Origin: Orbicella faveolata
Lineage: Eukaryota
Direction: 5' to 3'
DNA: 12,063 nt
Assembly: GCF_002042975.1 (NCBI RefSeq)
Contig: NW_018149776.1
Span: 344,855-356,917, forward strand
A program made the translations under genes and the position numbers. The notes below the pieces were generated by a model. It had not been told where the DNA came from. It did no database searches and worked only from the letters and a program-made list of their open reading frames with translations. Position 1 is the stretch's first letter. Each line of letters opens with the position of its first letter. Below, piece after piece: positions 1-12,063 of this stretch.

Positions 1-405
1 AACCATGCTCTCTAGGGTTCATTCTACGCATGCGCGTACACTTCACGCATGCGCTGTAGTTGAACTGCGTTTTGTGACTGAACGCAAAAAAAAGAAAAAA
101 TGGAGTCGAATTTATACCTCGGGCGTTTCCTACGGAAAGCCCGAGTAAAAACCCGGTTGTAAGAACCTAGATTGTTTCTAGGTTAGCCTAAAAAAGGTCT
201 AACTCGGGTCGAAAATGCCCCTTTTCGGGGTAATATCTACGATAAAACAAAATACGAAACAAGCAAAGACTACGGGACGAAGTGTTGGACTGTATATCAC
301 CGCGAAAGAGATTGAAACATTAAAATAATCTTCAGACTTTTATCATTAACGAATCTAAACGAACCACTACATAAACTGCACAACTGAGAATGAAGCGACT
401 CTTAC

Positions 406-528
406 TAGTTCTTGCTTCTTGTCGACGCCGGGGTATTGCTGCCAGGCAATGTAGGGAAGGATGTCAACGTCTTCTGCCAAAACCAAATCAGACATAGAAG
501 GGCCCTGTGCTTTGTCGAATTTCTCGTC
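406..528 (-). CDS. Candidate exon of the same minus-strand gene (DEKFDKAQGPSMSDLVLAEDVDILPYIAWQQYPGVDKKQEL, 123 nt, phase 0-0)
   Basis: Acceptor tgttttttccag| at 530/529 and donor CTA|GTAAGA at 405..400. It is phase-compatible with the 1142..1279 exon. The gene continues past the window start. Confidence 0.4.
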
Positions 529-1141
529 CTGGAAAAAACAAACAAGTAAAAAAAGAAAAGAGTAAGACAAGATGCATGTTTAAACAAACAGTAATTCACG
601 ATGAACAGGGGATTTTGAGGAAAAAGATTTTTCTTCTTTCCTATTACAGTGAAAGTTTTGCTTCTCACTAAGGTTTGGATGGATTTTAAATAGACTGCTT
701 TTCGACATCCTTTTTGTAGGTTAGGTTTTCCAAACTACGACTTCCGAACACTCTCGAACATCACCGAAGATTAACGACTGTCTTAATCAACAGATGTCTT
801 AATCACGCTAAGTTTGTCCTGTGTGTCATAATAATGTAATCTCATGTTTCTTAAAAAAATAAAAGGGGTTAATAACAGATTTGCACGATATCGTCATTTT
901 ACTACAACTACCAGAATTCTCTTGGTTTTTTCTTTGTTATTTAAATTTTGAAGCCCAAGTGGGGTTTAAATAACACTGAATTGCCCTAATTAGCATAAGC
1001 AAGAGAAAAAAAATGAAGGATTCTGGTAGTTGTAGTCACTAGTCACTTCCATTCTCAGGGAAAAAATTCTTTACTCGCCTCGATGCGATAACCAATGTTA
1101 ATTGTTCTCCGCGGATAAGTAATCTAACTCGCAAATATTAC

Positions 1142-1279
1142 CTTTTCTCTGTGCTCAACCGCTACAAAACTCGTGAATTTTGATACCACGGAGAATTCCT
1201 TGCTTAAAGAAATGATATAGTCTTTTCTGTCCCGCTTGACGATCTGAGGAATCAAGTCAACAAGTATAGTTATATTTAT
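1142..1279 (-). CDS. Candidate exon of VWA5A/ITIH-like gene (INITILVDLIPQIVKRDRKDYIISLSKEFSVVSKFTSFVAVEHREK, 138 nt, phase 0-0)
   Basis: Acceptor gtgttccttcag| at 1281/1280 and donor AGAAAAG|GTAATA at 1141/1140. The 46-codon open frame is flanked exactly by these sites. At least one exon between 1280 and 1823 is still needed to restore phase from the 1824..1888 exon. Confidence 0.35.
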
Positions 1280-1523
1280 CTGAAGGAACACCGCAAGTTT
1301 TCAGCCCAAAAATTACCAGTACCTTATTTCTCCTCACTCCACAGCGTAAAACTTAGAGGCTGCGATGATTTCATTCTCACGAAGAGTCAATAAAAGATAT
1401 TGTTTTGAAGAGGTGTAGAGCGCCTTTAAATTGAGTGCCGTGAAAACCAAAATAAACTGGCCAGTCACAAAGGACACACAATCCAAAGAAACAATCAAAC
1501 CTGGAAGCTCATTTAAAGAAACG

Positions 1524-1553
1524 CAACAACAACAACAACAACAACAACAACAA
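1524..1553. repeat. (CAA)10 trinucleotide microsatellite
   Basis: Ten perfect CAA units read directly from the sequence. It lies in an intron of the minus-strand VWA-like gene. Confidence 0.95.
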
Positions 1554-1823
1554 CCAAAATGAGATAGCTTCTAACAGACACCGAATGTTAGAGGGGCGTT
1601 AGAGCCGGCCATAAGTTATTGTTCACAAGTCTTCAGTTCAGAAATTATCAATTATCAAATTGGAAGATTCTCTACTGACAAACCTCGTGCCCAGTTCTCT
1701 GCTCGTGCAAGCTACCTTCGTCCCAGTCTCTTATAATTGCTCGTGCGGTCAGTTGATGAAGAATCTATCAAAGAGCCATAATTACAAAATTGCATGTGGA
1801 CAGAAATCAAATAAGTGACTTAC

Positions 1824-1888
1824 GAGAACAAAATTGTCCACGAAACATCGTGAATTTTGATGATCCAATGTTTTCTACATTTGCTTCC
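1824..1888 (-). CDS. Candidate exon of VWA5A/ITIH-like gene (GSKCRKHWIIKIHDVSWTILFS, 65 nt, ends phase 2)
   Basis: Acceptor gttgttttctctgctttag| and donor TTCTC|GTAAGT, both near consensus, with an open frame in phase 0. No protein similarity could be confirmed. The plus ORF 1790..1987 is antisense to it. Confidence 0.35.
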
Positions 1889-2061
1889 CTAAAGCAGAGA
1901 AAACAACTTGTAGGGACTGCACTTCTCTTATTTTGCATTACGCAATGTTTGCTGGACGTTAAAATCTTGGCAGCATTTGTTCATTAGTGTTTATTACACT
2001 GGAGGGGTGCGAGCATTATCTCGAGATGTTCCTAAGCTAGGAATTGCTTAACAGAACTTAC

Positions 2062-2142
2062 TTTGCCAGAGGTGATATTCAGTTCAGCGGTAGATACCAT
2101 GGTCGACACCGTCTTCCCGTTAACCTTCGCTGTCAAGGTCGC
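2062..2142 (-). CDS. Exon of VWA5A/ITIH-like gene (ATLTAKVNGKTVSTMVSTAELNITSGK)
   Basis: Strong acceptor ttttaatttattttatag| and consensus donor AAA|GTAAGT. The exon is 81 nt and phase 0-0, compatible with the upstream exon. Confidence 0.5.
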
Positions 2143-2215
2143 CTATAAAATAAATTAAAAAGAAAATAAGTCAACACTAAAAATGTATGAATGGTGTAAA
2201 CAAGTCAGTAGTTAC

Positions 2216-2386
2216 CTGTGTACAGTTATCTGCGAATCCGTACACAACTTGTCTCGAGCCGTTGAACAAGGACAGCAGTTGGTAGGGAGCCTGAACCGGG
2301 AGACTGGAACCGGAATTGTGCTGCTGCCAGGTAACCGCTACCGACGTAAGGCCTGGCTGGCCAGCTTTGGACAACTGCCACTTCAC
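2216..2386 (-). CDS. Exon of VWA5A/ITIH-like gene (VKWQLSKAGQPGLTSVAVTWQQHNSGSSLPVQAPYQLLSLFNGSRQVVYGFADNCTQ)
   Basis: Acceptor cattttag| at 2388/2387 and donor ACACAG|GTAACT at 2215/2214. The exon is 171 nt and phase 0-0, consistent with the preceding exon. The pattern V.V.W ... S.LF.G.RLV.YG is the conserved post-vWA segment of VWA5A/ITIH proteins. The plus ORF 2183..2395 in the track is antisense to it. Confidence 0.6.
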
Positions 2387-2711
2387 CTAAAATGAAGTCA
2401 TTTTACTACGTTAGAAAAAACATTAACGCGACGTAAGTCAGCGCCATCCTCTAATGGTTGGTGTGGTTAACTGTGGGCTTGAGCCCCGGTGATATGGTCT
2501 TGGACAAACCACTTACTCTTGCAGTGCCACTCTCCTCCCAAAAGTACAAATGGATATCGGAGATTTTTCACGGCAACTTGCTAGCTTGAAAAATGCTCGG
2601 GTGGTACCTTGCTATGGACTAGCATCCCATCCAGGGAGGGTACCAATACTCCAAGTCTAGTTGCTACAGAAACCATAAAATTACACCGAGCAATAATCTA
2701 ATGTTCTTTAC

Positions 2712-2811
2712 CTTTCTTTCCCATTTTGATTTGGCCTTACTCTCGAAAAACTCTGAAGCACCAGCTCCCACTCTAGACATGGCTCGTAAAAGGTAACGGT
2801 TGGCCGTGGAA
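2712..2811 (-). CDS. Exon of VWA5A/ITIH-like gene (T|STANRYLLRAMSRVGAGASEFFESKAKSKWERK)
   Basis: Acceptor ttgattccacag| with exon start 2811, and donor GAAAG|GTAAAG at 2711/2710. The first nucleotide T completes the split GG|T Gly codon from the 3310..3506 exon, so the phases match exactly. The peptide parallels the VWA5A segment ...LVKGLASVSEGSAELLMEGERLQPKMVK. Confidence 0.6.
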
Positions 2812-3309
2812 CTGTGGAATCAAGTCAAACCACACATGGAAATAAGAGAACACTTGTCATCAACATTTTCAACAAACGACTTTCAAATGTCTCTACCCCG
2901 TAAGAATTGGAGGTTGCTTGAAATGGGAACACCAACATGGGACCAACGGGAATTTGCTTTATTTAAGGGCTTGTGAAAGGAAGTGACTGCATAATTAAGG
3001 TCAAAAGTAGGAGTGAATTCTCTCATTCGGTGAAGGTACTGCCTTTTTTGCCAAATAATTCTTGAGCACTTGTCATGAGTTTCTATCTTCTGTTTTACAA
3101 TCAAGGATTTCTGAAGCGCTTGCTGTCACGTCAACGTGCCCTCGAAAGGTTACGTCGCGTTCTCAGCAGTATCCGCATGTCTCAAATAATTTCTCTAATA
3201 TTCACAAGAAACCGTCTTTTTAGGACGGTGACTACAGAGGAAGGTGCCGAAGTATTATTATCTATTAACACTCTTTGCAGTTTGCTAAGCACAAATGTTC
3301 ACTTCCTAC

Positions 3310-3506
3310 CCCACTCCAAACGTAAAGAGTCTGTCACTCTGGTAGTGACTGCGAATCAAATCACGTGTAGTGTCCTCCTCCGTCACGTGACCATCTGAGA
3401 TGAGAAACAGGTTGCGAGGGTGGTCAGCGGTGGACAGCGCGGGCACTAGATAGAGTTTCTGAAGGACGCGCCATAATTCCGTACTTCCTCTTGTGGCTGT
3501 TAAAGA
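3310..3506 (-). CDS. Exon of VWA5A/ITIH-like gene (vWA domain: SLTATRGSTELWRVLQ...ADHPRNLFLISDGHVTEEDTTRDLIRSHYQSDRLFTFGV-G)
   Basis: Acceptor cttttttaattcag| before 3506 and donor GG|GTAGGA at 3309/3308. The exon ends in phase 2. The motifs GGTxL, HPRxLFLI(S/T)DG and FTFG(V/I)G are the canonical vWA metal-site and strand motifs. The HPR-LFxxTDG...FxFGxG spacing matches VWA5A/ITIH-type vWA domains. Confidence 0.6.
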
Positions 3507-3628
3507 CTGAATTAAAAAAGTAGAAAGCAACATTATTAAAGGCTATTAATCTAAACAAGTTCAGTCAGCTGAGACCAGTAAAAAAGCTTTCACATGACAA
3601 CACATAGAGCAAATTACAGCATGTTTAC

Positions 3629-3755
3629 CTTGACAAATTCTACAGCATCACTGTGTGCAGCTTCGTCTTTTCGCTTGCTGCATGGAAACAGCTCGGAATG
3701 CTCTACAATGAGAGAACAACATTCGTTATTACCGTACCTAAATTCGCAATAGGGA
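3629..3755 (-). CDS. Exon of VWA5A/ITIH-like gene (central vWA domain; ...CEFRYGNNECCSLIVEHSELFPCSKRKDEAAHSDAVEFVK); 5' boundary uncertain
   Basis: Minus-strand donor GTCAAG|GTAAAC at 3628/3627. The frame is open back to a TAA at about 3760. Candidate acceptors are aaag| (exon start 3755) or aatttag| (exon start 3737). The peptide aligns to the vWA segment FNIIGFGSTFKTLFPSSQTYSEDSLAMA..I of VWA5A-type proteins, which I am recalling from memory. Confidence 0.45.
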
Positions 3756-5064
3756 CTTTAAGCAAATCGCTACGGATGGCACTGATACGGCTGTCGGAAG
3801 TAAATTTCCCCCAAAACGAGACACTGCGCATGTACGTCGGTTGCATCCAACCGCAGCGTGAAATCTGACTACGCGAGTCGGGATGTTTTGCCGTAGTGGC
3901 TACTACGTCGGGTTTATTTCGCTTCTCTGACCCTTTTCAACGGACATCTCGGCATTTTAAGAATTCCATTGGGTACTATGTCCTTTAAAGTCAATTTAAG
4001 TCAAAGATTGTGCCATGTTTGCGTATCATAAGCTTGTAAATCCGTATCCTGGATTTGCGATAAGTTTTGGCAAACGTGTTGGAATGGCGAAGCGAGTCAA
4101 GTGAAATATTCGTGTTGAGCGCGAGGTTAATTTTCTACTGTTAAGTTTGCTTTGAGAGTATAGTGAAGATGTTTTATATCTGGATAACTATACGATACTA
4201 TTTTGCTTGTTTGAGTATTGATATATTTGTGTTCTTTACTCGATATTCTTTGAGATATTTGTCTCTGAAATTATATATTTCATCCATCAAATTGTTATGG
4301 TACAAATTGTATGGCATTCGCTTTCGCTCAGAAATCATCTGTTCGTCCTAGGAAGGCGAATAAAAGCCATCGTCCTTTGAGCGAAGCCATTTGGCTGTGA
4401 GAAACTAAATAAAAGAGATTGTGAACTCCTTAGTCGATGTTTCTTTCATCTTTGTATTTCGCTTTGTTAAACTTAAAATTTGGCAGACCACCGAGACGTA
4501 CTCTCCCCAGACCTTTTCAGTCACGGCAGCCGTAGTGATTTGCTTAAACTCCCTAATTAGCCAATCACAAGCCGTATCTACAGTCCTGATATCCTGCGAT
4601 ATCAATTCACTGATCTGATATGGCTTCGATATCACGGTCAATTTAAGTGAAGTCATTTTTCCGTGAGTCAAATTGAAGAAGAGGTTTTAAAAACAGAATA
4701 TTAACCTCGAAATTAAACATTGAGCCTTTCTTCACGGGGTCTAAAAGGCGTCAAAACTTTCCCGCCCAAACTGAACTCAACGCGCGCGCCACGTAACTGG
4801 AACGCCCGACAGATCACCGTAACTAGAAAAAGATCTCCAGAACTTTGACCGAATTTGTTTACGGTATGTATCTAATCGTACCTCTTTTGGTACGCTTCGG
4901 CGCTATATTATTATCATTTTATTATTATATCAAGTTCGTTTGGTCTGGACGACCAAACTCACCCAATACTGCATTGAAGCGTAACAAAAAGGTACGATAA
5001 GGTAAAAATAACGCCGTCCATTTTAAAATATGGTAAGGCAGTCTTGAGGTAAATCCGAGTTCAG

Positions 5065-5295
5065 GGGCCCGTTTCTCGAAGGTCCCGAAACGTTTTTGCA
5101 CCCGGAAAGCCCTAGCAAAATCTCGAAGCTTATGATTACAGAGCTGTTTTATTCACGTATTCTTAATATGATCAGAGGTTCCCGCCTTCATACAAGAAGT
5201 TTCAAGCGTATACACTTCTCCGTTTTTAGATAGAGATGAACTAAAAATGGCTTTACGGGCCAGAAAAGTTTCCGGGGCTTTCGAGAAACGGGCCC
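5065..5295. mobile_element. MITE-like non-autonomous element, about 231 bp, with perfect 16-bp terminal inverted repeats GGGCCCGTTTCTCGAA / TTCGAGAAACGGGCCC and further imperfect subterminal complementarity
   Basis: The TIRs are at 5065..5080 and 5280..5295, and the sequence adjacent to each TIR is also partly complementary. The interior is AT-rich and non-coding. No clear target-site duplication was identified. Confidence 0.35.
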
Positions 5296-5842
5296 GCGCC
5301 GGGTTGTTCGAAAACCGGTTAACGCGAACCCAGGATCAAAAGTTAACCGAGGTATTAATTTTTCTTCTATGAAAATGTTGTTACTGCTTATGTTTTGTGT
5401 AGTTTGAGATTATTCAAATCCAAAACTGAAGGATAAACAATATAAACAGAAAACCTCACGGAAAAGTTACAAAACTAAAATCAACATTCTCGCTTATCCT
5501 AGGTTAGCTTAATCGGGCTTTGAACAACCCAGCCCTTATTGGTTCTTTCTCGGTCCGGATTTTGCGATACGGACCGTTTCCACGTTACGGTGGAAGTCTT
5601 TTGAATGCAAGTGTCCAGAAGCGCGTCCTATAATAAGCTACTTACTAACCTAGCTTGCTCAAGCCGCACTAGGGAATATAGGCTCCCGTTCGTTTATGTA
5701 CGCTGCGCTCGCTCTGTACTGCCACGACCTTGCGCCAATATTCCGTAGTACGGCTCTCGCGCTGGGTTAGTAAAAGGTTATTATTATATGGCTAGCTCCG
5801 TGAGCGGGCAAGATGAATCAAATCCTGCGCTGTGATTGGTTA

Positions 5843-5880
5843 CCCGAGCGGGCAAGATGGAGCTATCTTGCCCGCTCGGG
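5843..5880. repeat. Perfect 16-bp-arm palindrome cccgagcgggcaagat-ggagct-atcttgcccgctcggg; its arm core gagcgggcaagatg also occurs as a direct copy at 5802..5815
   Basis: Read directly from the sequence. It shares the CAAGATGG core with the larger palindrome 75 bp downstream. Confidence 0.85.
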
Positions 5881-5954
5881 ACTACCCGCCGTGTCCCGCA
5901 AGAAAAATTTCCCTGAAAGCCATATAATAAATCCTTTATTGACCAAGTTTGTTC

Positions 5955-6071
5955 GGCCAAGATGGCTGGATATTGGCCTCGTTCTTTTTTTGCGTGTTTA
6001 TGGACCTCGACTCCGTCTCGGTCCATAAACACCCAAAAAAAGAACTTGGCCAATATGCAGCCATCTTGACC
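5955..6071. repeat. 117-bp near-perfect palindrome (two 52-nt inverted arms at about 90% identity with a 13-nt loop), each arm ending in a CAAGATGGCTG / CAGCCATCTTG motif
   Basis: Arm A is ggccaagatggctggatattggcctcgttctttttttgcgtgtttatggacc. Its reverse complement matches arm B at 47 of 52 positions. The loop is tcgactccgtctc. Confidence 0.85.
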
Positions 6072-7162
6072 TCACACTTGGTCAATAACCCATATATATC
6101 CGGAATCCTAAATAAGCGCGAAAATTTTCGGAAGGAAAAATGAAAAATGGTCAACACAAAACATGCATTGACAATCAGGATTGAATAGCTTTTTGTTTTC
6201 AGTAAAGGGAAGTAAGGGAAGCTGTGTACATAACTACGATGATCATTCAAGTCTTAACATATTTCTCCGCAATTGAAATAAAAGATCTTTCATTTATTCA
6301 GCTGCATGAAACGAAGCAAGTGGGCTTTCTTTTACCTTAATTCTCAAGAGCCCAAAGACAGTTCATAAAATTAACATGCTTCCGCCACAAACAACCTTTG
6401 TCTGTCATGTTTTAGCTGTGCATTTATGGAGTTATCCATGCACGCTAGACATGCCGGAACCACGCAATACAAGACGCTTCTTTAGAATTACGTCTCTGTG
6501 ATTTCAGTTGACAAATGCTTGATTTTGAAATTTTTCAGCGGCCTGTTTCCATCCACAACAAGACACAGCGATAGGCGTGCACGTATTAACGGGAACAAAA
6601 TCATGTACCTTCACAAATGACCACAAACCCACCCAAGCGATACACTAACATGCCCTGACAAATGTGAATAGGGGAAAAAAATCGAAGGGAAAAAAAGAGA
6701 ACGTACTTCCCCACGGAAGGTGTAAAACTCTTGAAGATAAAAGACAAGAGAACAATAAGAATAAAAATTGTCGCCGTCGCGAGTCACGACCATTAAAAGC
6801 CATTACATACTAAAACAGGAAAATATTCACGTCAGTATCTACTCTCGCAAAAATCCTTCATGTGGTCAAGAAAAGAAGTAAAAGAATTGTCAAATAATTA
6901 AGTAGAATACGCAGACACCAATTATCCCACACGAACCAGCAATCAATTTGAAATCCGCACGCTTCTTTGGTCTTTGTGCACACATTCTCTCTCTTTAAAT
7001 TGAAATTGAACGTACACTGAAAAACTTCGTGAGAAAAAACCTTTGACATATCCCTTATTTGGAAAGGCTCCTGAAGTCCAAAAAAGTTCCCAAATTATAC
7101 GTTTTAGTGCCAAGCCGAAAACATTGCCTTACACTTCTTTTAACAGTCTTACATGGAGTGTT

Positions 7163-7168
7163 TTTAAT
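7163..7168 (-). terminator. ATTAAA variant polyadenylation signal candidate for the 7311..8462 gene, about 145 nt past its stop; a canonical AATAAA is at 6292..6297
   Basis: Plus-strand tttaat is ATTAAA on the minus strand. Which site is used cannot be determined without transcript data. Confidence 0.2.
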
Positions 7169-7310
7169 AACTCCGTAGCCACCAGTCAGTTAGGCTCGAT
7201 TACCAGCCACTGTTCGGGAAAGGAGCCCGCGCTCCTCCCCGAACTCTTCTCGGGGAGGAACGTAGACCGGACTCGAGAAAGCGGCGGAAATCGAGCCTAC
7301 CAGTCAGTTC

Positions 7311-8462
7311 TCAGTCTTTCGGTTTGAGGTTTGCAAACCAGAGTTTACTTGCAAACCACAAAACGATAGCAACATGTCCAAACAGCACAATCACGGCCAT
7401 ACCGACCGTGTTCACTATAGTTGGCTGTGAAGAAAAACGTTCCTGGAGAACGGTTCGTCTTTCTTGAAGGTCCACCTGTGCGGTGTTGAAGGCCTGTTGA
7501 ATGCCCATGGCGATCAGAATATGAGCCAGGTTGTGGCTTTGACCAAAATTATCGAAAACTCCACTCATTAATCGCTCCGGAACTCTGGCCGCGTACAACA
7601 CGGCGCCTAGACTACAGAAGATCACGTGACGCTTGAAATACACCATAGACACGCCGTTATAAGCCGGGTCAGCGTTTTTGCACAGAAGAAGGCGAACGGT
7701 ATACGGCGACGTGATAACAAGCCAGTTTACTGCAAGGATAGCGACCCTGAGCACGGATTTACAATTACGCCAACGTAGATGACTCGACACGCAACACAAA
7801 AGAGTTGCAAGGAATGAGAAGACCGTGGAAACGGTCTGGAAAACAGCCAGCGAATCGTAAATCGCCCGTACTGACGCGCCCGCGGCACGGGAGTAGAAAA
7901 ACAGAGCTTGTCCAGCGGTGAATGTGTAAAATCCTATAGCCGCGTAATCAAAGAAAAAACATATCCTGTGGAATTTCTCCGACATGCAGTTGAAAAGATG
8001 CGCGAAGGAACTTGTGAGATACAGTACGGATATACCCACGGCGAAGGAGATCAGCGGCAGGAAGAACGGATCATCAGTAGGTAAAGACGTCATGTTCACT
8101 GAAACAAAGAGTACCAAAGCAAGCAGGTGGCTCCAAACATTTATGGTCTCATTTGAAGATCGAAGCAAACTTCTAATACATTCCCAGAACGAAAACCCAG
8201 GACTTCGATACCCGGAAACGATGAAAGGCACTCTAAATACTTCGGGAACTTGGCAGTGTTTCAATCCATACGTCGCCTTGGCAGCCATTTTGAAATGATC
8301 TTGAGCATCTGAACAGATAATTTCTTCTTTGTTTTCGCTTGATGGAGAAGCAACCTCGCGTCCGTAAAAATCCTTTTCGAGTTTGTAGTCTTGGGACAAA
8401 GCCGCCGTTTTTTCACTTGTTCCAGAAGGATTTTGAAGCCTTTTGTGAATTGTTGAATGCAT
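7311..8462 (-). CDS. PAQR-family seven/eight-pass membrane receptor, membrane progestin receptor (mPR, PAQR5-9)-like; single coding exon, 383 aa
   Basis: The long minus ORF 7311..8528 in the track begins with TTG, so it is trimmed here to the first ATG at 8462..8460, which has A at -3 (acaATGc). The stop is TGA at 7311..7313. The protein carries the PAQR hallmarks: SGYRSPG...SSNETINVWSHLL (N-terminal motif preceding TM1), SSFAHLFNCMSE (His/Ser/Glu motif in TM2-3), DYAAIGFYTFTAGQA (Asp motif), and RVPERLMSGVFDNFGQSHNLAHILIAMG (C-terminal HxxxH). About seven hydrophobic helices are visible. No in-frame splice signals interrupt the ORF. Confidence 0.8.
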   Translation of the reverse strand: MHSTIHKRLQNPSGTSEKTAALSQDYKLEKDFYGREVASPSSENKEEIICSDAQDHFKMAAKATYGLKHCQVPEVFRVPFIVSGYRSPGFSFWECIRSLLRSSNETINVWSHLLALVLFVSVNMTSLPTDDPFFLPLISFAVGISVLYLTSSFAHLFNCMSEKFHRICFFFDYAAIGFYTFTAGQALFFYSRAAGASVRAIYDSLAVFQTVSTVFSFLATLLCCVSSHLRWRNCKSVLRVAILAVNWLVITSPYTVRLLLCKNADPAYNGVSMVYFKRHVIFCSLGAVLYAARVPERLMSGVFDNFGQSHNLAHILIAMGIQQAFNTAQVDLQERRTVLQERFSSQPTIVNTVGMAVIVLFGHVAIVLWFASKLWFANLKPKD

Positions 8463-8493
8463 TGTCGATGTTTCTGGTCGTCTTAACTTCCGG

Positions 8494-8511
8494 CTAGGAA
8501 AGGAATAAAAA
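8494..8511 (-). promoter_or_regulatory. Possible 3' splice acceptor (tttttattcctttcctag|) 33 nt upstream of the ATG of the 7311..8462 PAQR gene, suggesting a 5'-UTR intron and a non-coding first exon
   Basis: A polypyrimidine tract plus AG lies immediately 5' of the start codon on the coding strand. PAQR7/8-type genes in vertebrates have a non-coding exon 1 followed by a single coding exon. Confidence 0.3.
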
Positions 8512-10445
8512 TCGCTGTTTGTTTTCAACGGTCCGTTTGCCGATGACGTGCCCTCGGTCAGGCAAAAATTAATTCATTCGTGGCCCTCCGTGAATAACCT
8601 GACGATTCCGCTAAAAGGAAATGCTTTTCTGCCGCAGGCCGATTTCTTAATTTTTTCTCCGCAATCTGCTGATCCGGCACGATTTTTAAAATCCAAATGA
8701 ATTATTCCGCGTCGTGTCTTTTAAACCTGCCAAATCACCGGTTGTAGGGAAGAACCAAACAGTAGTGAGTTGATCCGGTCGCTCCCCATCCAAGACGCTT
8801 GTCATGAATAAATAAAACCTGCTTCTATTTACAGGAAAAAACCAGCAGTATGCACGGAAGGTTGTTCAAAAGCAGCGTGAAGCCACAAATAGGTGTCGGG
8901 AATTCAAAATTCTCGCCGGTGGAATTTAAATCAAGGGTTGGTTAAAAACGTTCAATCTCCTTCTCGTATCGCTTCTCAGTCAATCACACGAGCTTATGTT
9001 GCCTTGTGTTATCGGCGCGAGGCTTGAAATCAGAATTTTACCGGACGTCTTATTCTGAACATATCTCACAGCGGAAAAATAAAACACTTGTTAGCCCGAC
9101 AATGGACATTTCTGAAAGATGTAAACTATCTCAGTCGTCTTTGTTGCATAAATTTAAAGGTTTACAAGTGAATCAATTATTATTCATGTTTGCTTTTATT
9201 GTATCAAGTTGTCACCGCGAGGGACCCTTGCTTTGTATTGTTTGCGTTGTTTGATAGTCGCGTAAATAAAGAGGAAAAAACCTATTTGATTGGGAAGCTT
9301 TTCTAAAAGCATACCAGACGCTATTTGTAATTTACAAAAAAGAAAAAAAAACACGGTCATTTCAAAATTGTAATTTTAAATACTGTAGTGCTGCTGATAT
9401 TACATCAAGTACACAGCTTTTGGTAAGAAATATGTTTTTTTTGGACTTACTACTTGAAGAGCCGAGGTCGCCCATCTCACATTGGACCTAGAATAAGAAA
9501 TCTGAGAATAAACAAATCCGGCACAAAGCTGAAAAAAATAAAAACACAATGTTCTTGTTATTTTACCGACGATATCGCGTTGCCATCTTTTAAAGCATGT
9601 TAATTATCACTCGAGTTATAAGGGACAGTACAGCACAAAAACTTTGAGCGAATTTGAATTCAAGTTTTTGTGATCGATCGAGGCCTAATTTGGTGAACGT
9701 TGGTAAGGAAATGGTTGACACCAGCGATAAGACGAAACTGAAAGACAATATTATCACATCGGTACATTCTCTGTGGAGCATTTGGCGTATAAACTTTCAG
9801 TTTTTAAAAGCCTTTATTTTTAGGTCTGAAAATACTTACACGTGACCCGATGTGCGTGCCGTACGCGTTTCAACCGAGAACGAGTTTTCTTCAAATCTCG
9901 GCAAACACGAGCCAAACGCAAGGAAACCCACCAGAAGTTGCCGAAAACACACGGGAGGTTCAGGCTAAACAGTTACAAGTAGAACTCGTTGCAAAATTTA
10001 ATCCACGAAATACGAAGGAATATAAATTTTCTCTCCTTGAAATTGTGGAAGGTCTGATTCTGTAAACGTTTTCCCACGCATATTAAGCTTGCAGACTTTG
10101 AAAGTTTCAGAAAAGATATTTGGAGGTGTAAGTCGCATCAAAATGGCGGAGAGAAACAAGAACTGTGTTATTCCTTTACATAGGCAGGTCAACAAAAAAT
10201 AGCTCAGTGACTGCTAAATAATCACCCGAGCAATAACAAATTAATTCTATAAATTTTCCTGTTGGTTTCCTCTGCTGACAAAGTTTGCGAGCGTGAAGTT
10301 CACTATCTGTGTTTCGCGATGATCTTAAAGTTGTCACGCAACGCTTCTCATGTTTGCGTGAAGACGTAACGAAAAGGAATTACAAAACACTGTAATACTT
10401 ATTTGATCTTCTTGAACATAATTTAGAAATAAAGATTAGTCCTTT

Positions 10446-10451
10446 TTTATT
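10446..10451 (-). terminator. AATAAA polyadenylation signal candidate for the 10761..11879 gene, about 310 nt past its stop
   Basis: Plus-strand tttatt is AATAAA on the minus strand. It is the first canonical hexamer downstream of the stop codon. Confidence 0.3.
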
Positions 10452-10760
10452 CTCAGCAGAAGAAGTGTGACTTGAAGACCGACACAAATAAAGTACAAAG
10501 TACAGTATTGGCGCATATTTTATAGCATTGTACCATGATAACAGTCATGAATTTAAATAGAGGGAACTAATCTTGTCCCTTGACATTTTACAAAAGCTTT
10601 CCACCCGAAAAGACGAGACAAAATGTCGGTTTTAAATTGAAAAAAAAAAAATACTACATGCGGTATACCTTTTCCCAGCGGCGATAACACACTTTCAATA
10701 AAAAACCAATTACAAAAGTGGTAATTTGTCGTTAATAAAGTAAATATTGCGTATTTCAGT

Positions 10761-11879
10761 TCATGAGGTTTTCGAGCGTTCACCGCTACTTGCGGAGGTC
10801 AAGCGTAGAGATCTTGCCAACCAAAACACGATGAAAAGATTTCCAGCTAAAACTAACAGAGTCAATCCGACGGTCTCGAAGAAACTTGGAATATCTTCTG
10901 TAGCTAGGACTTCTTTCCTTGCCGCGAGATCCGAAAAGAACACAGAATAGGCAAAGTGATCGCCCACTGTTGTGAACACATGAAGGAAATTGTGACTGTG
11001 CCCGATAAAATCGAACACACCGGGCGCGAATCGCTCGGGTATCCGGGTCGTGTTCACCACTGCGGCGATCGCGAACGACAGGAAGCAGCCTGTGAAGAGA
11101 GGAAGAGAGTCGTGATTGCAAACGGGATCAGAAGAGCAGAAGATAAGTTGGCGGATAATAAAAGGCGAACAGTTGTAGGCCCAAGACACCATGTGGGAAC
11201 CCGTGCGGATAATGAATTTCGCGTGCAGCCAGCGATGGCGAGACCTGCAGCAGGAGTAGTTGGCTCCGAATGAGATCACAGCGGAGACGAATAAGAACAG
11301 TTCACGCCAGTCGTAAAGCAGGAGTCCTGATCCCAGAGGATGGCAGTAAAAGTAAAACGCTTGGCCCGCAGTGAACGTGTACACGCTTATGGCGGCGTAA
11401 TCGAGGTAGTAACCGATGTGGAATTCCCTTTCGGTCATGGAACTGAACATGTGAGCGAGGCAGCTCATGGTGTAAAGCGTGCAGCAGCCTAGAGTGAAGG
11501 ACGTGAGCGGAAAATAAAAATGATCTGTGGACGGATTGTGGTTCCACACCACTGAACAGTAGCGAGCAACCATAAGCACAATGGACAGAACGTGACTCCA
11601 GAAATTCACAGATTCATTGTTGGTGTAGAACATACTCTTTGCACTCTCCGAGGCGGACAGGTTTCGTAGCCGGTATCCGGATACAAGAAACTTCTCCCGG
11701 TAAGCTGTCGGCATTTGATAGTCACGTAACACTCGCGAGTGCCGGTTCGGCGAACCCGCGATGATTTCTTTCACGACGCCATTCTCATTAAGGTTCTTGT
11801 CAAGGTTCAAATCATGCGATTTTAACTCGCCGTTTCGCTCGATGCGTGTCAGTTTATTTCTTGTTAGTTTCCTCGTCAT
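10761..11879 (-). CDS. PAQR-family membrane receptor, mPR-like paralog; single coding exon, 372 aa
   Basis: ATG at 11879..11877 with A at -3; stop TGA at 10761..10763. The motifs match the upstream gene: VSGYRLRN...NNESVNFWSHVLSIVL, MSCLAHMFSSMTE, LDYAAISVYTFTAGQAFYFY, and RIPERFAPGVFDFIGHSHNFLHVF. It is roughly 40-45% identical to the 7311..8462 protein across the membrane core, so the two are diverged tandem paralogs. Confidence 0.8.
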   Translation of the reverse strand: MTRKLTRNKLTRIERNGELKSHDLNLDKNLNENGVVKEIIAGSPNRHSRVLRDYQMPTAYREKFLVSGYRLRNLSASESAKSMFYTNNESVNFWSHVLSIVLMVARYCSVVWNHNPSTDHFYFPLTSFTLGCCTLYTMSCLAHMFSSMTEREFHIGYYLDYAAISVYTFTAGQAFYFYCHPLGSGLLLYDWRELFLFVSAVISFGANYSCCRSRHRWLHAKFIIRTGSHMVSWAYNCSPFIIRQLIFCSSDPVCNHDSLPLFTGCFLSFAIAAVVNTTRIPERFAPGVFDFIGHSHNFLHVFTTVGDHFAYSVFFSDLAARKEVLATEDIPSFFETVGLTLLVLAGNLFIVFWLARSLRLTSASSGERSKTS

Positions 11880-11978
11880 ATTTTACGTCTCTAAAGGCGA
11901 CAAGTGTTTCCAACGAGTCTTTGTGGCTTTCTGAATCGCGTGTATTAAGCCGGCCCACACTGATTAAAAGCCGGCGAA

Positions 11979-11984
11979 TTTATA
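11979..11984 (-). promoter_or_regulatory. TATAAA box about 100 bp upstream of the ATG of the 10761..11879 PAQR gene
   Basis: The minus strand reads cattATAAATtcgcc. Its position is appropriate for a core promoter with a short 5' UTR. A TGACGCAA (CRE/C-EBP-like) motif lies about 35 bp further upstream on the plus strand at roughly 12013..12020. Confidence 0.3.
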
Positions 11985-12063
11985 ATGCAAATTAGAACCT
12001 GTAACTGCCCCTGTGACGCAATCCTCCCACTTAAGGTGGCCGAACACTGTTTTCGCGCGCGCT

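What the first reader, a model, noticed from the sequence alone, without database searches (positions are those of the whole stretch)
7311..11879. Tandem pair of diverged, intronless mPR-like PAQR receptor genes
Two same-strand single-exon paralogs 2.3 kb apart share all four PAQR signature blocks but are only about 40-45% identical. This indicates an old local duplication that has been retained, not a recent copy. Both N-terminal regions before the SGYR motif are low-complexity and differ completely. The N-terminal region is where ligand or partner specificity may lie. Membrane progestin/adipoQ receptor homologs in a non-vertebrate are candidates for steroid or lipid sensing, for example in reproduction or spawning physiology.
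Basis: partly seen in the sequence, partly recalled or inferred. Interest (0 to 1): 0.5.

Follow-up and report, generated by a model that had tools for sequence, protein, structure and literature searches.

The report
Two coral mPR-like genes inside PARP4 intron
The window holds two intact, single-exon membrane-progestin-receptor-like (PAQR) genes of a stony coral.

Summary
Two minus-strand single-exon ORFs both hit Pfam HlyIII/PAQR: A at 7311-8462 (383 aa) and B at 10761-11879 (372 aa), E 3e-31 and 5e-25. They keep all PAQR signature blocks and the zinc ligands. AlphaFold models match the adiponectin-receptor 7TM fold and add the eighth C-terminal helix typical of mPRs.

A and B are 36% identical overall and 38% in the core, not 40-45%. 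Both are under purifying selection (dN/dS 0.11-0.20). Orthologues occur in many scleractinian corals; Oculina patagonica annotates them as mPR gamma-B-like and delta-like.

They belong to an anthozoan-specific radiation of at least six mPRγ-like subfamilies. They are not sister genes (1% bootstrap). So "old and retained" is right, but "duplicates of each other" is unproven.

The N-terminal tails are disordered and weakly constrained, not truly low-complexity.

New context: eight GT-AG exons downstream (3702-400, same strand) splice into a PARP4-like open frame. In four related coral loci the earlier PARP4 exons lie upstream of B. The pair is therefore nested, same-strand, in a PARP4 intron. 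This nesting is conserved down to B orthologues of 54% identity.

Multi-copy, often tandem mPRγ genes in cnidarians are already published. Ligand and function remain untested. Verdict: ordinary.

The parts
10761..11879 (-). Gene B: single-exon CDS, 372 aa, mPR-like PAQR. Its Oculina patagonica orthologue is annotated 'membrane progestin receptor delta-like'.
   Evidence: ORF. Pfam HlyIII E 5.3e-25. Orthologues at 54-99% identity. dN/dS 0.05-0.30. AF2 pLDDT 88.3 with 8 TM helices. In-frame stop two codons upstream of the ATG.
7311..8462 (-). Gene A: single-exon CDS, 383 aa from the ATG at 8462 (the mechanical TTG ORF runs to 8528), mPR-like PAQR. Its Oculina patagonica orthologue is annotated 'membrane progestin receptor gamma-B-like'.
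   Evidence: ORF. Pfam HlyIII E 2.8e-31. Orthologues of 383-385 aa start at the same Met. dN/dS 0.14-0.20. AF2 pLDDT 84.8 with 8 TM helices. Foldseek matches AdipoR1/2.
8463..10760 (-). Spacer between B and A (2298 bp). It should hold B's 3' UTR and A's promoter and 5' UTR. About 900 bp upstream of A is conserved at 89% with the related coral locus L001.
   Evidence: blastn of loci against the window. AATAAA/ATTAAA signals at 10451, 10002, 9818 and 9200.
11880..12063 (-). Upstream region of B, with a TATAAA at 11984. Two Logan contigs of the same organism start at 12063 and 12059.
3629..3702 (-). Host gene (PARP4-like) exon, the first one downstream of the nested pair (…HSELFPCSKRKDEAAHSDAVEFVK).
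   Evidence: AG/GT boundaries and an open spliced frame. Conserved in L007, L008 and L001. Aligns to Lingula PARP4-like residues 108-129.
3310..3506 (-). Host exon, VWA domain (GSTELWRVLQKLY…LFLISDGHVTEE…FTFGVG).
   Evidence: (VWA_3, weak)
2712..2811 (-). Host exon (STANRYLLRAMSRVGAGASEFFESKAKSKWERK).
2216..2386 (-). Host exon (VKWQLSKAGQPGLTSVAVTWQQH…GSRQVVYGFADNCTQ).
2062..2142 (-). Host exon (ATLTAKVNGKTVSTMVSTAELNITSGK).
1684..1764 (-). Host exon (ILHQLTARAIIRDWDEGSLHEQRTGHE).
1142..1243 (-). Host exon (IVKRDRKDYIISLSKEFSVVSKFTSFVAVEHREK).
400..528 (-). Host exon (DEKFDKAQGPSMSDLVLAEDVDILPYIAWQQYP…). The 3' boundary is approximate.

Best explanation
The window comes from a scleractinian (stony) coral genome. 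Genes A and B are two functional, independently conserved genes with single coding exons. Each encodes a PAQR-family membrane protein of the mPR-like (class II, 'mPRγ-like') branch.

Each protein has three parts:
- a disordered, probably cytoplasmic N-terminal tail;
- the seven-helix PAQR core, with the intact zinc site (three His plus Asp, with the Sx3H serine) that in adiponectin receptors supports a ceramidase-type lipid hydrolase activity;
- an extra eighth C-terminal transmembrane helix, as predicted for vertebrate mPRs.

A and B represent two different, old subfamilies of an anthozoan-specific radiation of such genes. They lie head-to-tail inside one intron of the PARP4 (vault poly-ADP-ribose polymerase) gene, on its coding strand. 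The intron splits the VWA-domain coding region. This nesting is conserved across corals.

Shown: gene integrity, family, fold, constraint, synteny and nesting.

Inferred: they act as zinc-dependent lipid-binding or lipid-hydrolysing membrane receptors. The ligand is unknown, and the choice between progestin-like, sphingolipid or fatty-acid ligands is not decided here. Also inferred: they are transcribed from their own promoters within the host intron.
For: - Family: Pfam HlyIII well above cut-off for both. PDB sequence hits are AdipoR1/2 only.
- Catalytic and zinc residues are invariant across 77-79 homologues: S151, H155, D172, H310, H314 in A; S139, H143, D160, H296, H300 in B.
- Fold: AF2 models have pTM 0.82 and 0.86, with 7 TM helices plus an eighth at A 350-377 and B 334-356. 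Hydropathy confirms that last helix as the most hydrophobic segment. Foldseek against PDB gives AdipoR1/2 at E 8e-10 to 5e-9 and target TM-score 0.72-0.80; everything else has E above 6e-3.
- mPR branch: deuterostome proteins named mPR gamma-like hit at E 1e-36 and fish PAQR7/8 at 1e-13 to 1e-17, against 3e-6 for AdipoR. NJ trees put A and B in a monophyletic anthozoan radiation (88.5% bootstrap) next to ambulacrarian mPRγ-like proteins. This agrees with Ren et al. 2019 (PMC6604198), who count seven mPRγ genes in Nematostella and none of the other subtypes.
- Function retained: dN/dS is 0.14-0.20 for whole genes and 0.11-0.16 for the core.
- Arrangement: the B-then-A order on one strand is conserved in L001 (87/90% aa) and L008 (64/71% aa).
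- Nesting: eight GT-AG exons at 3702-400 splice into an open frame. That frame is 54-55% identical over 98% of its length to proteins named PARP4-like in Lingula and Anneissia. The upstream VIT and VWA-start exons lie upstream of B, on the same strand, in L001, L007, L008 and L010.
Against: - There is no direct transcript evidence whose library type I could verify. The Logan contigs L003-L006 and L009 are colinear with the genome, but they may be DNA or RNA.
- Class II placement rests on only two vertebrate mPR sequences, automated names and NJ trees. PAQR3/4/5/6/9/10/11 were not in the tree. The node joining cnidarian and ambulacrarian sequences has only 58-66% bootstrap.
- The upstream PARP4 exons of this very organism lie beyond the window end. 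Nesting is inferred from synteny with four related loci.
- No ligand, enzymatic or signalling data exist for any cnidarian PAQR that I could find.
Confidence: 0.85

Rival explanations
1. A and B are direct tandem duplicates of each other. A arose from B, or B from A, by one local duplication inside the PARP4 intron, and A then diverged quickly.
For: They are adjacent, on the same strand, 2.3 kb apart and in the same intron. The most divergent locus, L007, has only B in that intron, as expected if A was added later. Deep nodes of the anthozoan radiation are short and poorly resolved.
Against: An exclusive A+B clade appears in 1% of 200 NJ bootstraps. A is closer to other paralogues than to B: 43-45% to Nematostella P0076 and P0075, against 36% to B. 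If A had arisen after the L007 lineage split, it would have to nest inside the B clade, and it does not.
Confidence: 0.25
2. One or both ORFs are non-functional: pseudogenes, or untranscribed relics sitting in an intron.
For: They lie in an intron of another gene, and no verified transcript data are available here.
Against: The ORFs are intact in every species examined. dN/dS is 0.14-0.20 with dS 0.2-0.45. All zinc-site and motif residues are invariant. Many identical copies were assembled from many sequencing runs, with clusters of 65-344 member sequences.
Confidence: 0.03
3. The ORFs are not separate genes. They are alternative 3'-terminal exons of PARP4, giving PARP4(VIT)-PAQR chimeric transcripts or an intronic polyadenylation isoform.
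For: Same strand as the host. Several AATAAA signals follow each ORF. One Logan contig spans B, the spacer and A without a break (L005).
Against: B has an in-frame stop two codons before its ATG. Each protein is a complete PAQR with its own conserved Met. Related paralogues in Nematostella are free-standing single-exon genes not associated with PARP4. Oculina annotation lists them as separate proteins of 373 and 385 aa.
Confidence: 0.05
4. They belong to PAQR class I (adiponectin-receptor-like) or class III (bacterial hemolysin-III-like), not to the mPR branch.
For: The only solved structures they resemble are AdipoR1/2.
Against: No mPR structure is in the PDB copy, so that comparison is uninformative. 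Sequence similarity to AdipoR is far weaker (E 3e-6) than to mPR-named deuterostome proteins (E 1e-36 to 1e-13). An eighth TM helix is present. AdipoR sequences fall outside in the trees.
Confidence: 0.04

Closest known systems
Invertebrate 'mPRγ-like' PAQR genes, e.g. the seven mPRγ copies of Nematostella vectensis (Ren et al. 2019, PMC6604198) and the Oculina patagonica proteins annotated mPR gamma-B-like and delta-like
   Same: Same Pfam family, same motifs, same length class (340-390 aa), single coding exon, multi-copy and often neighbouring on one strand. A and B are 83% identical to the Oculina proteins.
   Different: Nothing of kind. The 'gamma-B' and 'delta' labels are best-hit names. 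Both genes fall in an anthozoan-specific radiation, so neither is a one-to-one orthologue of vertebrate PAQR5 or PAQR6.
Vertebrate membrane progestin receptors PAQR5-9 (mPRγ, δ, α, β, ε)
   Same: PAQR core, predicted eighth C-terminal TM helix, short N-terminal tail. Some of them (PAQR9; PMC6604198, section 7) also have a single coding exon.
   Different: Only 24-30% identical to fish PAQR7/8. No evidence for progestin binding or G-protein coupling. Cnidarians lack a nuclear progesterone receptor, and their steroid physiology is uncertain (my own knowledge).
Adiponectin receptors AdipoR1/AdipoR2 (PDB 5LXG, 5LWY, 5LX9)
   Same: Same 7TM fold (target TM-score 0.72-0.80). Identical zinc-ligand pattern of His, Asp, HxxxH plus Ser.
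   Different: 22-24% identity. AdipoRs lack the eighth helix and have a longer structured N-terminal region. They form a different PAQR class.
Host/nested gene pairs (an intron-nested gene on the host's strand)
   Same: Short intronless genes inside a long intron of a multi-exon host. This is a common arrangement in animals: about 10% of genes in Drosophila and mammals, according to the abstracts of PMC3814207 and PMC13309782.
   Different: Here two paralogous genes share one host intron. The nesting is conserved across deeply diverged corals. No functional link between PARP4 and PAQRs is known.

Membership tests
PAQR / Haemolysin-III superfamily (Pfam PF03006) | Significant match to the HlyIII profile above the gathering score | tested here: met
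   109.4 and 88.8 bits against a cut-off of 26.2; nearly the full profile is covered.
PAQR / Haemolysin-III superfamily (Pfam PF03006) | Conserved motifs with the zinc ligands: ExxNxW(T/S)H, Sx3H, D in TM3, PER…HxxxH | tested here: met
   All are invariant in alignments A1 and A2. They align to AdipoR1 H191, D208, H337 and H341.
PAQR / Haemolysin-III superfamily (Pfam PF03006) | Seven-helix AdipoR-type fold | tested here: met
   AF2 pTM 0.82 and 0.86. For model A, Foldseek finds AdipoR1/2 at E about 1e-9. The fold search was not run for model B.
Class II PAQR (membrane progestin receptor branch, PAQR5-9) | Phylogenetically closer to mPRs than to AdipoR, PAQR3/4 or PAQR10/11 | tested here: inconclusive
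   Closer to mPR-named echinoderm, hemichordate and fish proteins than to AdipoR1/2. PAQR3/4/5/6/9/10/11 of vertebrates were not available for the tree, and the deep node has 58-66% bootstrap. The result is consistent with Ren et al. 2019, where related Nematostella genes are classed as mPRγ.
Class II PAQR (membrane progestin receptor branch, PAQR5-9) | Extra C-terminal (eighth) transmembrane helix (Thomas 2022 review, PMC9179843) | tested here: met
   Helix 350-377 in A and 334-356 in B at high pLDDT. It gives the strongest hydropathy peak, 2.4 and 2.27. The feature is described in the review.
Class II PAQR (membrane progestin receptor branch, PAQR5-9) | Specific progestin binding and G-protein activation | not testable with these tools
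   Needs binding and signalling assays.
One-to-one orthologue of vertebrate mPRγ (PAQR5) or mPRδ (PAQR6), as the database names suggest | Groups with that vertebrate subtype to the exclusion of other cnidarian paralogues | tested here: not met
   A and B fall inside a monophyletic anthozoan radiation (88.5% bootstrap) together with at least four other subfamilies. No vertebrate PAQR5 or PAQR6 sequence was in the tree, so the test is indirect.
Tandem duplicate pair (sister paralogues) | Adjacent on the same strand | tested here: met
Tandem duplicate pair (sister paralogues) | Each other's closest paralogue | tested here: not met
   Exclusive A+B clade in 1% of 200 bootstraps. A is 43-45% identical to other paralogues against 36% to B.
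Intron-nested gene | Host exons on both sides, spliced across the nested gene | tested here: met
   Downstream host exons are in the window, with GT-AG boundaries and an open spliced frame. Upstream host exons are seen in the syntenic loci L001, L007, L008 and L010; they lie beyond the end of this window. Splicing itself is inferred, not observed.

The most novel reading that the evidence does not exclude
The conserved same-strand nesting of one or two mPR-like genes in the VWA-coding intron of PARP4 across deeply diverged corals might not be a neutral accident. It could reflect regulatory coupling, such as shared chromatin or promoter activity. It could instead reflect transcriptional interference or intronic polyadenylation that trades PARP4 output against PAQR output. 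A separate possibility is that the anthozoan radiation of at least six mPR-like subfamilies provides lipid or steroid sensors used in reproduction.
Probability: 0.07. Interest if true: 0.5.

Novelty: new member of a known kind. Interest (0 to 1): 0.17.

Why it matters
It matters little beyond annotation. It adds two well-supported members to the already described cnidarian mPRγ-like expansion. It shows that the 'gamma-B-like' and 'delta-like' labels in coral annotations do not mean orthology to vertebrate subtypes.

The practical point is the nesting in PARP4. Any RNA-seq quantification of these two genes will be contaminated by same-strand host pre-mRNA reads. Gene predictors may also fuse or drop them.

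If someone wants to test steroid or lipid signalling in corals, these are clean, intron-free ORFs with intact zinc sites that can be expressed directly.

Tried and rejected
- Third copy or pseudogene fragments in the window: none found by tblastn.
- Rfam, tRNA and tandem-repeat scans of the window: nothing relevant, only a (CAA)10 microsatellite.
- Fold search against AFDB50 to obtain subtype names: the library was not available.
- Identifying the source organism or library type from run and assembly accessions in the literature: no hits.
- Looking up the Oculina chromosome context of P0005 and P0028: not on record.
- Testing whether P0035 and P0077, which share a contig length, are adjacent: no second HlyIII gene within 10 kb.
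- Testing whether a Nematostella paralogue is also nested in PARP4: it is not. It sits between an M13 peptidase gene and a COX24 gene, with another HlyIII gene 5 kb downstream.
- Pseudogene reading: rejected on dN/dS.
- 'Low-complexity N-termini': rejected on entropy.
- Literature on coral mPRs and spawning: nothing specific.

Full report
**Observation**

The window's minus strand carries two long ORFs exactly at the limits given: 7311..8528 and 10761..11879.
- The first (gene A) is listed from a TTG. Its orthologues are 383-385 aa and begin with the same MHST(I/V) sequence, so the real start is the ATG at 8462 (383 aa).
- The second (gene B, 372 aa) starts at an ATG, with an in-frame stop two codons upstream.
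- The distance from B's stop to A's ATG is 2298 bp.
- Both proteins match Pfam HlyIII (PF03006) over nearly the whole profile, at 109.4 and 88.8 bits against a cut-off of 26.2.
- They align to each other at E 7e-70, with 36% identity over 373 residues. The core from the SGYR motif onward is 38% identical.
- No further copy or fragment is in the window.

**What the proteins are**

Sequence search of the PDB finds only adiponectin receptors 1 and 2 (E 3e-6). The printed alignment matches the AdipoR zinc ligands and neighbouring motifs. In alignments of 77-79 homologues the invariant columns are exactly these:
- N-E-x-x-N-x-W;
- S151 and H155, D172, P295, and H310 and H314 in A numbering;
- S139, H143, D160, H296 and H300 in B.

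AlphaFold2 models built from those alignments are confident: A has pLDDT 84.8 and pTM 0.82; B has 88.3 and 0.86. Both show seven membrane helices plus an eighth C-terminal helix, at A 350-377 and B 334-356. That helix is also the strongest hydropathy peak. The review of mPR structure (PMC9179843) describes such an eighth helix as the feature that sets mPRs apart from AdipoRs. Foldseek of model A against the PDB returns AdipoR1/2 only (E 8e-10 to 5e-9, target TM-score 0.72-0.80). The next hits are unrelated GPCRs at E above 6e-3.

**Which organism and which branch**

Homologue searches return almost only cnidarian proteins. The named ones are from stony corals.
- Oculina patagonica has 'membrane progestin receptor delta-like', 83% identical to B, and 'gamma-B-like', 83% identical to A.
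- Stylophora and Desmophyllum proteins also appear.
- A Logan contig (L005) is 99.96% identical to window 12063-7273 and colinear with it.
- Outside Cnidaria the best hits are echinoderm and hemichordate proteins named mPR gamma-like (E 1e-36 to 1e-32). Fish PAQR7/8 follow at 1e-17 to 1e-13.

NJ trees rooted on AdipoR1/2 give these supports:

| Grouping | Bootstrap |
|---|---|
| All anthozoan sequences in one radiation | 88.5% |
| A clade | 100% |
| B clade | 87.5% |
| A+B as exclusive sisters | 1% |

The radiation holds at least six subfamilies and sits next to the ambulacrarian mPRγ-like proteins. This matches Ren et al. 2019 (PMC6604198). They count seven mPRγ genes and no other subtype in Nematostella. 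[quoted passage not shown] They also note that lineage-specific copies are often tandem. The 'gamma-B' and 'delta' labels are therefore best-hit names, not orthology.

**Are the genes functional**

Pairwise dN/dS against orthologues is 0.14-0.20 for A and 0.05-0.30 for B, at dS 0.2-0.45 and above. The membrane core has omega 0.11-0.16. The N-terminal tails are much less constrained, with omega 0.43-0.64, and are modelled as disordered, with pLDDT below 50. In the L008 orthologue, A starts at the Met equivalent to residue 59. The tails are not compositionally low-complexity: entropy is 4.08 and 3.85 bits against 4.06 in the core. On the AdipoR-type topology the tail is cytoplasmic. It could carry partner specificity, but it is an unlikely place for ligand specificity.

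**Arrangement in other genomes**

- The order B then A on one strand recurs in L001 (B 87%, A 90%; spacing about 3 kb) and in L008 (B 64%, A 71%).
- L007 (B 54%) and L010 (B 67%) show no A within 10 kb downstream.
- In Nematostella, a related paralogue (P0076) is a single-exon gene. Another single-exon HlyIII gene lies 5 kb downstream on the same strand.
- Intronless coding regions and same-strand neighbours are therefore the norm for this family in Anthozoa.

Short ORFs on the minus strand below gene A looked like VWA-domain exons.
- Translated comparison of the window with L007 and L008 showed eight conserved coding blocks.
- With AG/GT boundaries at 3702-3629, 3506-3310, 2811-2712, 2386-2216, 2142-2062, 1764-1684, 1243-1142 and 528-about 400, they splice into one open frame.
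- That frame is 54-55% identical, over 98% of its length, to proteins named PARP4-like in Lingula anatina and Anneissia japonica. Their Pfam content is VWA. The exons align colinearly to Lingula residues 108-413.
- In L001, L007, L008 and L010, the preceding PARP4 exons lie upstream of B on the same strand. These are the VIT domain and the VWA start with the DxSxS motif. In L007 the '…NIIVFGS' exon is also seen there. The precomputed Pfam marks agree: PARP_reg in L008 and VIT in L010.
- The PAQR genes therefore sit inside one intron of the coral PARP4 gene, in the host's orientation. The intron splits the VWA domain.
- The intron holds B alone in L007 (about 4.9 kb). It holds B plus A in L001, L008 and the window (more than 8.3 kb here).
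- The upstream host exons of this organism lie beyond position 12063, so for the window itself nesting is inferred from synteny. L001 is colinear with the window from 2345 to 12032.

**Mechanism**

Shown: two intact PAQR proteins with a complete zinc site, the AdipoR fold, an mPR-type eighth helix and strong purifying selection.

Inferred from established knowledge of the family: the AdipoR structures show a zinc centre and a bound C18 fatty acid, and suggest ceramidase activity (PDB 5LWY and 5LX9; Vasiliauskaité-Brooks et al. 2017, as cited in PMC9179843). Vertebrate mPRs bind progestins. On that basis A and B most likely act as zinc-dependent, lipid-binding or lipid-hydrolysing membrane receptors. 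Which lipid or steroid they recognise is unknown. I found no paper on coral mPRs.

Because they lie on the host's strand, their transcription and polyadenylation must coexist with PARP4 read-through. AATAAA and ATTAAA signals follow both ORFs. Whether this causes interference is untested.

**Rivals**

- Direct sister duplication of A and B is possible but not favoured (1% bootstrap). Deep nodes are short, so I leave it at 0.25.
- The pseudogene reading is rejected on constraint.
- The alternative-terminal-exon reading is rejected on the upstream stop and the autonomous orthologues.
- The class I or class III reading is rejected on similarity and the eighth helix.

**Novelty and verdict**

Cnidarian multi-copy mPRγ-like genes, their tandem arrangement and single-exon mPR genes are all in the literature. 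The orthologues are already annotated in a related coral. The nesting in PARP4 is a new detail of an ordinary kind; nested genes make up about a tenth of animal genes. The finding is real and correctly classified in outline, but unremarkable. Interest is 0.17.

Noticed in passing
window 400-3702, minus strand: Eight GT-AG exons of a PARP4-like (vault PARP) gene, covering the second half of the VWA domain and the region after it. The spliced frame is open and 54-55% identical to Lingula and Anneissia PARP4-like proteins. The two PAQR genes lie in the intron just upstream of these exons.
   Followed up: yes
window 5784-6250 (palindrome arms 5950-6011 / 6015-6076; outer arms 5927-5951 / 6073-6097): An interspersed repeat with an internal 62-nt inverted duplication. 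Its ORF-like translations (…RDGVEVHKHAKKERGQYPAILAEQTWSIKDLLYG…VPSGQDSSILPARVTNHSAGF…) recur at non-syntenic places in L008 (2104-2744) and L010 (8740-8841). It is probably a transposable-element remnant inside the same PARP4 intron.
   Followed up: partly
window 5065-5295: MITE-like inverted repeat: 47-nt arms, 79% complementary, 137 nt apart (GGGCCCGTTTCTCGAAGG…). Short translated matches to L007 at unrelated positions suggest a dispersed element.
   Followed up: no
window 1524-1554: A perfect (CAA)10 microsatellite in the PARP4 intron between exons 1764-1684 and 1243-1142.
   Followed up: no
window 8529-9448 and L001 13123-14071: About 900 bp upstream of gene A is conserved at about 89% with the related coral L001, as well as the coding sequence is. 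Contigs from three sources (L002, L003, L004) begin or end within about 9170-9450. This may mark A's promoter and 5' UTR, or a repeat boundary.
   Followed up: no
L005 (Logan SRR31374343), equal to window 12063-7273: One assembled contig spans B, the spacer and A without a break and starts exactly at the window's last base. A second contig (L006) starts 4 nt further in. If these runs are RNA-seq, this would indicate a transcription start near 12060 with read-through or host pre-mRNA. The library type could not be determined.
   Followed up: partly
L012 (Nematostella DS469507.1) 10001-11029 and 15944-16798: Two single-exon HlyIII genes on one strand, 5 kb apart, with a COX24_C gene between them. 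They are not in PARP4. This shows that clustering of intronless mPR-like genes is general in Anthozoa.
   Followed up: partly
L007 (ERZ25071792) 8672-13577: In the most divergent locus, the same PARP4 intron holds only the B orthologue (54% identity) and no trace of A. Either A was added later or it was lost there.
   Followed up: partly
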